Origin: a virus
Virus record (IMG/VR): IMGVR_UViG_3300005805_009577
Location: 1 to 64,000 of that record
Direction: 5' to 3' (one strand)
DNA: 64,000 nucleotides
Shown here: piece by piece, positions 25,133 to 26,763 of the stretch
Numbering within the stretch: position 1 is the stretch's first letter
Layout of the letters: every line of letters starts with the position of its first letter
Notes under the pieces: model-generated
What the model was told of the DNA's origin: nothing
The model's database searches: none
The model's input: only the letters and a program-made list of their open reading frames with translations
Position numbers and translations under genes: made by a program

Positions 25133-25765
25133 ATGTTATATCAAGAATTTCATTATCTTTATCCACCCCGACCAGAAAATGCTGTAACAGCAGGTAGAAT
25201 TTCTTTTTATGAAAAGCATGGTTATGTAGGCCAATATAAAAAGAATGGAACATGCAGTATATTTGCAATAAAAGCTCCTGATACTTTTATATCAATGACT
25301 CGTCATAACGACGATCATAAGCAATGGGGTTTTTCCAAATACTTTAAAGATTGTTTTGCAAAATATTGCGAACCAGGGCTTTGGTATTATTTTGTTGGAG
25401 AAGTTCTTCATTCTAAAACAGTTGATATTAAAGATACTGTTTATATTTTTGATGTTTTAGTTAGTGAGTCTGTTTATTTGTATGGAGAAACTTTTGAAGA
25501 CAGACAGAACACTTTAAAAAGAATTTTTAAAGCAGATGAAAAGCAAGAAGATTATAGTCACTATGTTATAGAAGAAAGATTCTGGCTTGCTAAAAATTTC
25601 GAATCTGATATCTATAAAAAATTCAAAGAAATAAAAGATACTAGCGTGGATGAAGGTTTTGTATTAAAGAAAAAGAATTCTATCTTAGAAGATTGTGCCA
25701 AAAAGACCAATAATCAATCTTGGCAAATGAAGTTCAGACACCCCAGTAAAAAGTATCAGTTTTAG
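25133..25765 (+). CDS. ATP-dependent ligase-family nucleotidyltransferase, catalytic core only (no OB domain)
   Basis: Motif I YKKNG, III FVGEV, IIIa YIFDV, IV EGFVLK, V QMKFR; ends 8 aa later. Confidence 0.7.
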   Translation: MLYQEFHYLYPPRPENAVTAGRISFYEKHGYVGQYKKNGTCSIFAIKAPDTFISMTRHNDDHKQWGFSKYFKDCFAKYCEPGLWYYFVGEVLHSKTVDIKDTVYIFDVLVSESVYLYGETFEDRQNTLKRIFKADEKQEDYSHYVIEERFWLAKNFESDIYKKFKEIKDTSVDEGFVLKKKNSILEDCAKKTNNQSWQMKFRHPSKKYQF

Positions 25766-25886: not shown

Positions 25887-26354
25887 ATGAATACATGTAA
25901 CTTTTGTGAAAGGCTTATTAACAATAAAGGGTCTTTAGCAGCCCATATTAAGTGTTGTAAAAATAATCCTAATAAAATTAAGCATAATCACTCTAAACTA
26001 GCAGGACAGAAAAAAGGCTGTATTCCTTGGAATAAAAATAAAACATTTGAGGATAAAACGAATTTAAAGCTAATTGAAAAAGTAGAAAGTGGAAAATATA
26101 AAAATTATTCTGACAATAGTATACGAAGATTAATTAGAGCATACCTAATAAATCGACATGGCCACAAATGTATGATTTGTGGATTCGAGCAGTGGCTAGG
26201 CAACAAGATACCTTTGGTTTGCGATCATATTGATGGCGACTCTAATAATAATGAAATAAATAACTTTAGAGTTATATGCAATAATTGTGATTCTATTTTG
26301 CCAACTTTTAAGGGCAAAAATAGAGGTAAAGGTAGAGCAAAAAGATATAATTAG
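25887..26354 (+). CDS. HNH endonuclease
   Basis: CMICG...LVCDHIDGDSNNNEINNFRVICNNCD. Confidence 0.9.
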   Translation: MNTCNFCERLINNKGSLAAHIKCCKNNPNKIKHNHSKLAGQKKGCIPWNKNKTFEDKTNLKLIEKVESGKYKNYSDNSIRRLIRAYLINRHGHKCMICGFEQWLGNKIPLVCDHIDGDSNNNEINNFRVICNNCDSILPTFKGKNRGKGRAKRYN

Positions 26355-26355
26355 A

Positions 26356-26380
26356 AAAGGTTCGAATCCCTCAGTTCCCG
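26356..26380 (+). pseudogene. tRNA 3'-end remnant
   Basis: AAAGG-TTCGAAT-CCCTC-AGTTCCC-G: T arm plus acceptor 3' strand, with no 5' half seen. Confidence 0.55.
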
Positions 26381-26411
26381 TTAATATTTATTATAGACCA
26401 ATTGCTTGGTA

Positions 26412-26545
26412 CTGGCGAAACAGGATTTGAACCTGTAACCTAGCGGTTATTCCACTTTTGGGATTTCAACCCAATAACTTCCGGTTTTTTGACCTCTGTA
26501 AGTGGCTTTGTACAGCCGCCCGCTCTACCGTTGAGCTATTCGCCA
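26412..26545 (-). tRNA. Intron-containing tRNA, best read as tRNA-Asn(GTT); 62-nt insert at 26450..26511
   Basis: TGGCGAA/TTCGCCA acceptor, GCTC-AACGGTA-GAGC, GGCGG-CTGT|TAA-CCGCT, ACAGG-TTCAAAT-CCTGT, G73. Confidence 0.8.
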
Positions 26546-26597
26546 AAGAAATCATTATACCAAAAATTTTCCCCTTCTCAAACAAAAAATTTTCTTC

Positions 26598-26626
26598 TTG
26601 ACAAAACCAAAAATTTTTTTTAGAAT
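26598..26626 (+). promoter_or_regulatory. Near-consensus sigma-70 promoter, divergent from the intron tRNA
   Basis: TTGACA, 17 bp spacer, TAGAAT; a TG-G-TATAAT element on the minus strand precedes the tRNA. Confidence 0.7.
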
Positions 26627-26702
26627 GTCGCTATTGCGACATTCCTAGTTCACTGGAAAAAAATTGGAGAACTTTCTTAAAAATAATTTAAATTTGTTTC
26701 TC

Positions 26703-26708
26703 GGTACG
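26703..26708 (+). promoter_or_regulatory. RGTACG motif, copy 5
   Basis: TTTGTTTCTC-GGTACG upstream of 26764. Confidence 0.55.
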
Positions 26709-26763
26709 TCCATCGGGTAGTCAGGCTTACAGTAAACAATTTTTAGAAAAGGGATTAATACAA

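What the first reader, a model, noticed from the sequence alone, without database searches (positions are those of the whole stretch)
26412..26545. 62-nt structured intron inside the anticodon of a phage tRNA (probably Asn-GTT)
Seen: a complete minus-strand cloverleaf is split by a 62-nt insert (26450..26511: ACAAAGCCACTTACAGAGGTCAAAAAACCGGAAGTTATTGGGTTGAAATCCCAAAAGTGGAA). Three junctions give a 7-nt loop: CT-GTT-AA (Asn), CT-GTA-AA (Tyr) and CT-GAT-AA (Ile). Established: U1-A72, G73 and a short variable arm are typical of bacterial tRNA-Asn, whereas bacterial Tyr has A73 and a long arm. This favours an intron between positions 35 and 36 rather than the canonical 37/38. Seen: the insert is closed by CCACTT/AAGTGG, contains a T-arm mimic (TTGGG-TTGAAAT-CCCAA), and has TACAG able to pair with the exon CTGTA, a P1-like alternative. 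It is much shorter than typical group I introns, and I see no clear bulge-helix-bulge motif. Inference: an unclassified tRNA intron type with an unknown excision mechanism.
Basis: partly seen in the sequence, partly recalled or inferred. Interest (0 to 1): 0.85.

Follow-up and report, generated by a model that had tools for sequence, protein, structure and literature searches.

The report
tRNA-shaped intron in phage tRNA-Asn
The only asparagine tRNA gene of this large phage is split in the middle of its anticodon by a conserved 62-base insert folded like the top half of a tRNA; this barely described kind of phage tRNA intron is probably cut out by ordinary tRNA-trimming enzymes and re-sealed by an RNA ligase, a splicing route never yet demonstrated.

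Summary
A minus-strand tRNA (26412-26545, Rfam 54.9 bits) carries a 62-nt insert (26450-26511) between U35 and U36. Uninterrupted phage tRNA-Asn(GUU) genes are 65/72 identical, without gaps, to the two exons joined, so the junction and the identity are fixed.

The insert is not an orphan. Five other lineages carry the same design: a 5-nt leader AYAAR, a 6-7-bp acceptor-like stem, and a T-arm abutting that stem. Compensatory changes support it (13 pairs, 0/500 shuffles).

It belongs to a wide phage class of tRNA-shaped anticodon-loop inserts. These range from complete nested tRNAs (Gly, Asp and Phe inside Asn and Arg), whose mature ends coincide with the splice sites, down to minihelices like this one. 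Devoto et al. 2019 mentioned such "enigmatic" introns in Lak phages, and this scan has found the class before on other DNA.

It is neither group I nor bulge-helix-bulge. Intron-bearing phages encode 3'-OH/5'-P RNA ligases, never RtcB or EndA.

The most likely mechanism is RNase P and RNase Z-type cuts followed by ligation. This is inferred, not shown. The conserved 5-nt leader of this subfamily does not fit a plain RNase P cut and needs an extra trimming or cutting step.

The parts
26554..26581 (-). Sigma-70-type promoter of the interrupted tRNA gene: TTGAGA, 16 nt, TATAAT with an upstream TG. The -10 hexamer ends 8 nt before tRNA position 1.
   Evidence: 11 of 12 consensus matches, TG present. 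Consensus match only; not shown to fire.
26512..26545 (-). Exon 1 of tRNA-Asn: acceptor 5' strand, D arm, anticodon stem 5' strand, and loop bases C32 U33 G34 U35.
   Evidence: Compensatory changes in the acceptor and anticodon stems among six lineages. Matches the intron-less homologues L418-L423.
26507..26511 (-). 5-nt single-stranded leader ACAAA at the 5' end of the insert. It is AYAAR in all six lineages of this subfamily and lies between the 5' splice site and the first base of the tRNA-like element.
   Evidence: Length 5 and pattern AYAAR are kept even in the divergent L264, whose stem sequence differs.
26500..26506 (-). 5' strand of the acceptor-like stem: G (opposite A, unpaired) plus CCACTT.
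   Evidence: helix 4. U-A in the window versus G-C in the other five at the pair nearest the junction. L264 has a different, fully paired 7-bp stem.
26475..26499 (-). Variable linker with a small hairpin (GGU-CAAAAA-ACC). It is larger in relatives and absent in L264, so it is dispensable.
26458..26474 (-). T-arm mimic: 5-bp stem TTGGG/CCCAA and 7-nt loop TTGAAAT, directly abutting the 3' strand of the acceptor-like stem as in a real tRNA.
   Evidence: helix 6: 100% paired, 2 pairs with double changes.
26450..26457 (-). 3' strand of the acceptor-like stem (AAGTGG, then A opposite G), followed by one discriminator-like A. The 3' splice site follows immediately.
   Evidence: The tail after the 7-position stem is 1 nt here and 1-2 nt in the subfamily.
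26412..26449 (-). Exon 2 of tRNA-Asn: U36 A37 A38, anticodon stem 3' strand, 5-nt variable loop, T arm, acceptor 3' strand, discriminator G73. No CCA is encoded.

Best explanation
This is the phage's own tRNA-Asn(GUU) gene, transcribed from its own promoter. It is interrupted between U35 and U36 by a 62-nt intron that is a miniature tRNA: a 5-nt leader, then an acceptor-like stem stacked on a T arm (a tRNA 'top half'), with no anticodon arm.

Shown: the gene, the exact insertion point, the fold and its conservation, and membership of a broad phage class. That class runs from complete tRNA genes nested in anticodon loops down to such minihelices.

Inferred mechanism: the host's tRNA end-processing enzymes treat the insert as a pre-tRNA. 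An RNase Z-type cut after the discriminator-like A frees exon 2 with a 5' phosphate. RNase P cuts at the first base of the acceptor-like stem and leaves exon 1 with a 3' OH. The two tRNA halves stay held together by the acceptor, D and T structure. An ATP-dependent (3'-OH/5'-P) RNA ligase seals the nick in the anticodon loop, as T4 Rnl1 does for broken tRNA-Lys. The phage encodes an Rnl5-type ligase and a 210-aa ligase core 650 nt from the gene.

In this subfamily RNase P alone would leave five extra bases (ACAAA) on exon 1. A further step is therefore needed: 3'-5' trimming, or a separate endonucleolytic cut at U|AYA. That step is the least supported part.
For: Gene and junction: (65/72 identity, gapless, to intron-less Asn genes).

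Functional constraint:
- Six lineages with compensatory changes in both the exons and the insert.
- No other tRNA-Asn in this genome, nor in 6 of 7 other intron-bearing genomes examined.
- Asn is 7.7% of codons and AAT is the second commonest codon among those listed.
- A near-consensus promoter.

tRNA nature of the class:
- The inserts in L010 and L039 are complete tRNA-Gly(UCC) and tRNA-Asp(GUC) ending in CCA (ARAGORN; Rfam 64.4 and 63.5 bits).
- Those inserts run exactly from tRNA base +1 to A76, and their removal restores CU-GUU-AA.
- The Rfam tRNA model also hits exactly the inserts of L020 (43.1 bits) and L047 (36.2 bits).

The rule '5' splice site = inner +1' holds in about 20 independent families. 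It holds in outer tRNAs read as Asn, Gln, Glu, Lys, Arg and (less securely) Thr/Ile, at loop positions 34|35, 35|36 and 36|37. The site is therefore fixed relative to the insert, not to the outer tRNA, as expected for RNase P.

Chemistry:
- PF09414 RNA ligases occur in 7 of 7 complete intron-bearing records and in this genome; Rnl1 occurs in three records.
- RtcB is in 0 of 40 records and EndA in 0 of 22.
- This genome's 342-aa ligase matches Naegleria RNA ligase (PDB 5COT) at E 5e-54.
- A DEDD 3'-5' exonuclease lies two genes upstream of it (PDB 7T2S, E 1e-27).
Against:
- The conserved 5-nt leader puts the expected RNase P site 5 nt downstream of the 5' splice site. Other families have leaders of 18-38 nt (L278, L056, L032).
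- Across the class the 3' splice site lies 1 to 5 nt after the inner acceptor stem, and often not after a CCA. One fixed RNase Z rule cannot explain all members; L264 of this very subfamily has a 2-nt tail.
The controls were few and mostly incomplete contigs.
- The exonuclease has no homologue in the other genomes checked, and its substrate is unknown.
- The insert folded alone is not unusually stable (z -0.92).
Confidence: 0.5

Rival explanations
1. A dedicated, still unknown protein endonuclease (phage or host) cuts at both splice sites. It would recognise the outer anticodon stem together with the U|AYA motif or the internal-loop geometry. The tRNA-like fold would only hold the ends in place or recruit the enzyme. 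Healing and sealing enzymes would then join the exons.
For: All inserts with a 5' leader begin AYA right after U35: ACAAA, AUAAA, ACAAG, ACACAG, AUACAG, AUACUA, AUACUG. The 3' splice site is not at a fixed distance from the inner stem. An HNH nuclease gene lies next to the gene here and in two other lineages of the subfamily, although HNH enzymes are usually DNases.
Against: No candidate enzyme was identified. In the roughly 20 leaderless families the 5' site tracks the first base of the insert while its position in the outer loop varies from 34|35 to 36|37, which is the opposite of a ruler on the outer tRNA. No EndA and no RtcB were found.
Confidence: 0.2
2. The RNA is not spliced into a working tRNA-Asn. 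The outer tRNA would serve as a processing scaffold, or the transcript would yield tRNA halves and a stable minihelix. These could act as a decoy or regulator, for example against host tRNA-targeting defences.
For: Where the insert is a complete, unique tRNA (Gly in G001, Asp in G002), the inner product is plainly useful in itself. No spliced product has been seen.
Against: The exons keep every tRNA-Asn feature: a 7-nt loop on removal, G73, and compensatory changes in all four outer stems. They are 90% identical to intact Asn genes. Intron-bearing phages with 21-26 tRNAs lack any other Asn gene despite heavy Asn codon use. Insert lengths are always such that the outer loop is restored to exactly 7 nt.
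Confidence: 0.15
3. A decaying pseudogene: a tRNA-Asn gene inactivated by a chance or mobile insertion.
For: A truncated tRNA 3' fragment lies 30 nt away (26357-26381, +) and a homing-type HNH gene is adjacent, so the neighbourhood is recombinationally active.
Against: The same insert at the same site occurs in six lineages with compensatory rather than disruptive changes. There is an intact near-consensus promoter.
Confidence: 0.05
4. A self-splicing ribozyme: a minimal or degenerate group I-like intron.
For: Exon 1 ends in U, as at group I 5' splice sites. The same genome has a genuine 217-nt group I intron in another tRNA (L002, RF00028 at 40.4 bits against a gathering score of 50, E 2e-08).
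Against: 62 nt is far below any group I core. There is no RF00028 signal at E<=10. The insert ends in A or U, not the omega G. The P1-like pairing is not conserved. The conserved parts are a plain helix and a T loop.
Confidence: 0.03
5. An archaeal or eukaryal-type bulge-helix-bulge intron removed by a splicing endonuclease.
For: Inserts at 35|36 of tRNA-Asn in archaeal genomes (AGAA...CAGCCG type, with a kink-turn-like motif) turned up with the same search pattern.
Against: Those inserts share no sequence or fold with this one. They come from Woesearchaeota, Nanoarchaeota, Methanosarcinales and similar archaea. There is no helix-bulge-helix at these junctions, no EndA in 22 phage records, and the promoter is of the bacterial type.
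Confidence: 0.02

Closest known systems
'Enigmatic' tRNA introns of Lak megaphages (Devoto et al. 2019, Nat Microbiol, PMC6784885)
   Same: Phage tRNA genes interrupted in the anticodon loop by short conserved inserts. One of them (in tRNA-Thr UGU) 'itself may encode a tRNA'. Insertion points were defined by alignment with intron-less alleles, as done here.
   Different: That paper reports the observation only: no fold rule, no mechanism, no survey. The present insert is in tRNA-Asn of an unrelated 30%-GC phage of about 180-230 kb, is a minihelix rather than a possible tRNA, and has a conserved 5-nt leader.
Group I introns in bacterial and phage tRNA anticodon loops (tRNA-Leu UAA, fMet, Ile, Arg; Rfam RF00028)
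   Same: They sit in the anticodon loop at non-canonical positions, follow a U, and occur in bacteria and phages. This very genome has one (L002).
   Different: Group I introns are 200 nt or longer, carry a P3-P9 catalytic core and an omega G, and splice themselves. None of these features is present here.
tRNA punctuation processing by RNase P and RNase Z (mitochondrial transcripts; polycistronic bacterial and phage T4 tRNA precursors)
   Same: A tRNA or tRNA-like fold embedded in a longer RNA defines both cleavage sites. The products carry 3'-OH and 5'-P ends. This rests on established knowledge, not on a test here.
   Different: In those systems the flanking RNAs are separate products and are never re-joined. 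Here the flanks are the two halves of another tRNA and must be ligated.
T4 tRNA repair (Pnkp and Rnl1 sealing of tRNA-Lys broken in the anticodon loop by PrrC)
   Same: A phage ATP-dependent RNA ligase seals a 3'-OH/5'-P nick in a tRNA anticodon loop. Rnl-family ligases are present in the intron-bearing phages.
   Different: T4 repairs damage inflicted by a host nuclease and needs end healing. Here the break would be programmed, and made by enzymes that already leave ligatable ends.
Archaeal bulge-helix-bulge tRNA introns, including the tRNA-Trp intron that encodes a C/D box RNA
   Same: Protein-dependent removal, non-canonical positions, and an intron that can itself be a structured functional RNA.
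   Different: They require the BHB motif and EndA and give 2',3'-cyclic phosphate ends joined by RtcB. None of the three was found here.

Membership tests
tRNA (Rfam RF00005) | Cloverleaf scoring above the gathering score of 29 bits | tested here: met
   54.9 bits over model positions 1-71, with the insert in the anticodon loop.
Bacterial-type tRNA-Asn(GUU) | Anticodon GUU in a 7-nt loop, G73, short variable arm (identity rules from established knowledge), and homology to intact Asn genes | tested here: met
   The in-silico spliced sequence is called tRNA-Asn(gtt) by ARAGORN. It is 65/72 identical, gapless, to the native intron-less genes L418-L423. It has U1-A72, G73 and a 5-nt variable loop.
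Phage tRNA-shaped (nested-tRNA-type) anticodon-loop introns | The insert lies in the anticodon loop and folds as an acceptor-like stem with a T arm (5 bp, 7-nt loop with T at loop position 1 and A at position 5) abutting its 3' strand | tested here: met
Phage tRNA-shaped (nested-tRNA-type) anticodon-loop introns | 5' splice site coincides with base +1 of the inner tRNA-like element | tested here: not met
   A conserved 5-nt leader AYAAR lies between U35 and the first position of the 12-position acceptor/T stack. The feature is met in about 20 other families.
Phage tRNA-shaped (nested-tRNA-type) anticodon-loop introns | 3' splice site lies 1-5 nt after the inner acceptor 3' strand (after the discriminator or an NCCA-length tail) | tested here: met
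   The tail is 1 nt here (A), and 1-2 nt in the subfamily.
Nested functional tRNA gene (as in L010, L039, L192) | The insert is itself a complete tRNA with D and anticodon arms | tested here: not met
   ARAGORN finds no tRNA in the insert even at relaxed threshold. There is no anticodon arm.
Group I intron (RF00028) | Catalytic core P3-P9, about 200 nt or more | tested here: not met
   No hit at E<=10 in 26250-26750; the insert is 62 nt.
Group I intron (RF00028) | Omega G at the 3' end, and P1 pairing of the 5' exon with an internal guide | tested here: not met
   The insert ends in A (U in relatives). TACAG, which could pair with CUGUA, is absent from all five homologues.
Bulge-helix-bulge intron | BHB motif at the junctions and an EndA-family endonuclease in the system | tested here: not met
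   The junctions lie in an asymmetric internal loop (9 nt against 4 nt) with no 4-bp central helix. PF01974 is absent from 22 records while the archaeal controls were positive. The host genome is unknown and was not tested.
RNase P / RNase Z substrate | Actual cleavage at the predicted sites | not testable with these tools
   Only the recognition shape (a 12-position acceptor/T stack and a T loop) can be shown.

The most novel reading that the evidence does not exclude
Phages use a fourth route of tRNA splicing, beside group I self-splicing, BHB/EndA and the eukaryal Sen complex. In it a tRNA-shaped intron is excised by the universal tRNA end-processing enzymes RNase P and RNase Z, and the halves are sealed by a 3'-OH/5'-P RNA ligase. 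This subfamily adds a third, unknown step that removes a conserved 5-nt AYAAR leader. The introns would have arisen from whole tRNA genes nested inside other tRNA genes and then shrunk to the minimal processing signal.
Probability: 0.4. Interest if true: 0.85.

Novelty: new variant of a known kind. Interest (0 to 1): 0.72.

Why it matters
- No protein-dependent tRNA splicing is known in bacteria or their viruses. A route built from RNase P, RNase Z and an Rnl-type ligase would give phage RNA ligases a second role beyond repair.
- It would explain why standard tRNA finders miss essential phage tRNAs. ARAGORN's default run missed the only Asn tRNA of this phage.
- The series from complete nested tRNA to minihelix shows how an intron can evolve from a gene.
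- The system is directly testable: a 134-nt transcript and three or four purified enzymes would suffice.
- In practice, tRNA complements and codon-adaptation analyses of large phages are undercounted wherever such genes are missed.

Tried and rejected
- Exact-word scans of viral contigs with the exon/intron junction and with the T-arm mimic found nothing. BLAST against GenBank phages found nothing. A structural pattern was needed.
- A relaxed pattern for the AYAAR subfamily without the D-arm anchor gave only chance matches beyond the known members.
- The first, stricter pattern for intron-less alleles found none; a looser one succeeded.
- An alternative hairpin, exon GGCU with insert AGCC (in the MFE fold), was considered and dropped because L264 cannot form it.
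- Collaborative homing was considered: the adjacent HNH cuts intron-less Asn genes and the insert protects the phage's own copy. HNH adjacency is conserved in 3 of 6 lineages. However, a more distant HNH also sits beside the intron-less genes L418-L423, and HNH genes are common in phage tRNA clusters. The idea is left open, not adopted.
- The 'AGAA...CAGCCG' inserts at the same loop position looked like a second phage class. They proved to be archaeal and were set aside.
- Literature searches for nested tRNAs or tRNA-like introns found nothing beyond Devoto 2019. Williams 2020 (bioRxiv 10.1101/2020.01.27.920355) covers group I introns only.
- The PDB entry 7T2S could not be tied to an RNA or a DNA substrate.

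Full report
WHAT IS THERE

The window is the first 64 kb of a 181-kb, roughly 30%-GC IMG/VR phage record estimated at 78% complete. On the minus strand at 26412-26545 the Rfam tRNA model scores 54.9 bits end to end, with a long unaligned block in the anticodon loop. ARAGORN misses the gene by default and finds it only with introns allowed. It reports a 62-nt intron, but it cannot choose the junction.

Read directly, exon 1 is 26545..26512 and ends CUGU. The insert is 26511..26450. Exon 2 is 26449..26412 and begins UAA. A near-consensus promoter (TTGAGA, 16 nt, TG-n-TATAAT) ends 8 nt upstream of tRNA position 1.

IDENTITY AND EXACT INSERTION POINT

Six viral contigs (L418-L423) carry an uninterrupted tRNA-Asn(GTT). 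It aligns without gaps, 65/72 identical, to exon 1 + exon 2 joined as CUGU+UAA. Four of the seven differences form two compensatory pairs, one in the D stem and one in the T stem. Because the insert starts and ends with A while the flanking exon bases are T, the junction cannot slide.

The genome has a separate long-arm tRNA-Tyr(GTA), a tRNA-Ile(TAT), and no other tRNA-Asn. Asn makes up 7.7% of codons in the long ORFs, and AAT alone 5.9%.

THE INSERT IS CONSERVED AND STRUCTURED

A structural pattern scan of viral contigs and metagenomes found five further lineages with a homologous insert at the same site: L062, L071 (=L266/L277), L065 (=L270), L272 (=L279) and the divergent L264. All share the following:
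- a 5-nt single-stranded leader AYAAR;
- a 6-7-bp stem;
- a linker that may or may not hold a small hairpin (L264 has none);
- a 5-bp stem with a 7-nt T-type loop that abuts the 3' strand of the first stem with no spacer;
- a 1-2-nt tail.

On the six-sequence alignment, 97.2% of cells form standard pairs. Thirteen of 36 pairs change on both sides, and these include pairs in the insert's two helices and in three of the four outer tRNA stems. None of 500 shuffles reaches this, and slid controls pair at 29-47%.

The TACAG that could pair with the exon CUGUA is absent from all five relatives. An exon-insert hairpin seen in the MFE fold cannot form in L264. Neither is supported.

WHAT KIND OF THING IT IS

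The stem plus abutting T arm is the acceptor/T 'top half' of a tRNA. The same scan, and an anticodon-agnostic scan for two T arms about 30 nt apart, show that this is one end of a series.

- In L010 the insert in tRNA-Asn is a complete tRNA-Gly(UCC) ending in CCA.
- In L039 it is a complete tRNA-Asp(GUC) ending in CCA (ARAGORN; Rfam 64.4 and 63.5 bits).
- In L192 a complete tRNA-Phe(GAA) sits in a tRNA I read as Arg(UCU).

In L010 and L039 the insert runs exactly from base +1 to A76; in L192 it runs from +1 to C75. In all three, removal restores a normal 7-nt loop. The inner Gly and Asp tRNAs are the only tRNA-Gly of G001 and the only tRNA-Asp of G002.

Other inserts are reduced cloverleaves that the Rfam tRNA model still hits over exactly the insert (L020 at 43.1 bits, L047 at 36.2 bits). 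Others again are bare minihelices like ours.

Outer tRNAs that I read as Gln, Glu, Lys, Arg and (less securely) Thr or Ile also carry such inserts, at loop positions 34|35 to 36|37. In about 20 independent families the 5' splice site is the first base of the inner element, whatever the position in the outer loop.

Bacterial genomes yielded only three such hits, two of them identical, on short-to-medium contigs (4.6-30 kb) of gut MAGs. The many archaeal hits carry unrelated inserts of the form 'AGAA...CAGCCG', with a kink-turn-like motif and an exon-complementary 3' end; I read these as ordinary archaeal introns.

FUNCTION OF THE INTERRUPTED GENES

Seven of the eight whole phage records examined have no uninterrupted tRNA-Asn. 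These include phages with 21 and 26 tRNA genes. G012 also lacks any other tRNA-Gln besides its interrupted one. Together with the covariation in the exons, this argues that the interrupted genes are the working copies.

MECHANISM (INFERRED)

A tRNA-shaped insert whose ends coincide with tRNA ends points to the tRNA end-processing enzymes. RNase P would cut at the inner +1 and leave a 3' OH on exon 1. An RNase Z-type enzyme would cut after the discriminator, or after position 76, and leave a 5' phosphate on exon 2. These are the ends that ATP-dependent Rnl-type ligases join.

- PF09414 ligases are present in 7 of 7 complete intron-bearing records and in this genome.
- Rnl1 (PF09511) is present in three records.
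- RtcB is in none of 40 records and EndA in none of 22.
- This genome's 342-aa enzyme (G000 75798-76826) matches Naegleria RNA ligase at E 5e-54.
- The 210-aa ligase core at window 25133-25765, 650 nt from the gene, is 31% identical to a G007 ORF that passes the PF09414 cut-off.

The ligase association is only suggestive. The controls were few and incomplete, and large phages often carry ligases anyway.

WHAT DOES NOT FIT

In this subfamily the first position of the 12-position acceptor/T stack lies 5 nt downstream of the splice site. RNase P would therefore leave ACAAA on exon 1. Leader length and the pattern AYAAR are conserved in all six lineages.

A few other families have leaders of 18-38 nt, and all of them begin AYA. 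This suggests either 3'-5' trimming or a separate cut at U|AYA. A DEDD 3'-5' exonuclease gene lies two genes upstream of the Rnl5 ligase gene. It has no homologue in the other genomes checked, and its substrate is unknown.

Across the class the 3' tail also varies from 1 to 5 nt, so no single RNase Z rule covers every member. No RNA evidence could be obtained.

PRIOR KNOWLEDGE

Devoto et al. 2019 (PMC6784885) reported 'enigmatic' conserved introns in Lak megaphage tRNAs, one of which 'itself may encode a tRNA', and proposed no mechanism. Other literature searches found nothing on this design.

Earlier follow-ups of this scan described the same class on at least 12 other genomes and reached the same tentative mechanism. 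Two first-reader notes describe the CCACTG/CAGTGG subfamily on another genome. I took the Lak reference from those notes and checked it myself.

VERDICT

The intron is a new variant, carrying a leader, of a barely described phage class of tRNA-shaped introns. Group I, BHB and pseudogene readings are disfavoured. The RNase P/Z-plus-ligase route is the best-supported mechanism at about even odds, with the leader-removal step unexplained.

Noticed in passing
L002:836-1125 (G000 155835-156124, minus strand; outside the window): A second interrupted tRNA in the same genome carries a 217-nt insert that matches the Rfam group I intron model (RF00028, 40.4 bits, below the gathering score of 50, E 2e-08). 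The relative G007 has a similar 198-nt one at 132816-133086. The phage thus appears to hold two different kinds of tRNA intron.
   Followed up: partly
window 25887-26354 (+): An HNH endonuclease gene lies 57 nt from the 3' end of the interrupted tRNA, in convergent orientation. Homologues of 62-68% identity lie immediately downstream of the homologous interrupted tRNA in L071/L266 and L272/L279. In G007 the order is Asn, Ser(GCU), HNH on one strand, so the Asn gene is inverted here. It may be a free-standing homing endonuclease, but a weaker homologue also flanks intron-less Asn genes (L418-L423).
   Followed up: partly
window 26357-26381 (+): An orphan tRNA 3' fragment (T loop, T-stem 3' strand, acceptor 3' strand, discriminator) starts 3 nt after the HNH stop codon. 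No 5' half is present, and there is no other match in the eight genomes searched.
   Followed up: partly
window 25133-25765 (+): A 210-aa nucleotidyltransferase with only a weak Pfam DNA-ligase hit (24.3 bits, below cut-off) and no PDB relative by sequence. It is 31% identical to a 216-aa G007 ORF that passes the PF09414 RNA-ligase cut-off. It lies just upstream of tRNA-Ser, the HNH gene and the interrupted tRNA-Asn.
   Followed up: partly
L424:834-2827 (G000 74833-76826, outside the window): A DEDD-type 3'-5' exonuclease (PDB 7T2S, E 1e-27), a 133-aa unknown ORF and an Rnl5-type RNA ligase (OB fold plus NTase; PDB 5COT, E 5e-54) lie in a row. This could be an RNA end-trimming and sealing cassette.
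   Followed up: partly
L071:10351-10702 (-) and L062:4139-4492 (+): Phage-encoded tmRNA genes (Rfam RF00023, 127 and 99 bits) lie near the interrupted tRNA-Asn in two relatives of this phage.
   Followed up: no
L046:449-1032 (-): A full-length ROOL RNA (RF03087, 328 bits) lies inside the tRNA cluster of a 169-kb phage that also has an interrupted tRNA-Asn.
   Followed up: no
L286, L288, L291, L295, L298, L304, L306, L311, L319, L325, L326, L331 (inserts at 35|36 of tRNA-Asn): Archaeal (DPANN, Methanosarcinales and similar) tRNA-Asn genes carry 48-56-nt inserts. They share a (C/U)UGA ... RAUGAA kink-turn-like motif and a 3' end (CAGCCG) complementary to the last bases of exon 1. L304 is labelled Alphaproteobacteria, which is probably a binning error.
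   Followed up: partly
L036:9256-9377 (+) and L105:7218-7341 (-): Two possible suppressor tRNAs with odd inserts, both in phages that also have tRNA-shaped introns. One has a UUA anticodon loop and about 39 extra nt in the D region; the other is CUA-type with a 43-nt insert that has no T arm.
   Followed up: no
L144:5445-5640 (+), approximate: A 119-nt insert in a tRNA (Thr or Arg) has a perfect 7-bp acceptor stem, a D arm, a T arm and a TCCA end, but a very long segment where the anticodon arm should be. It may be a nested tRNA that is itself interrupted.
   Followed up: no
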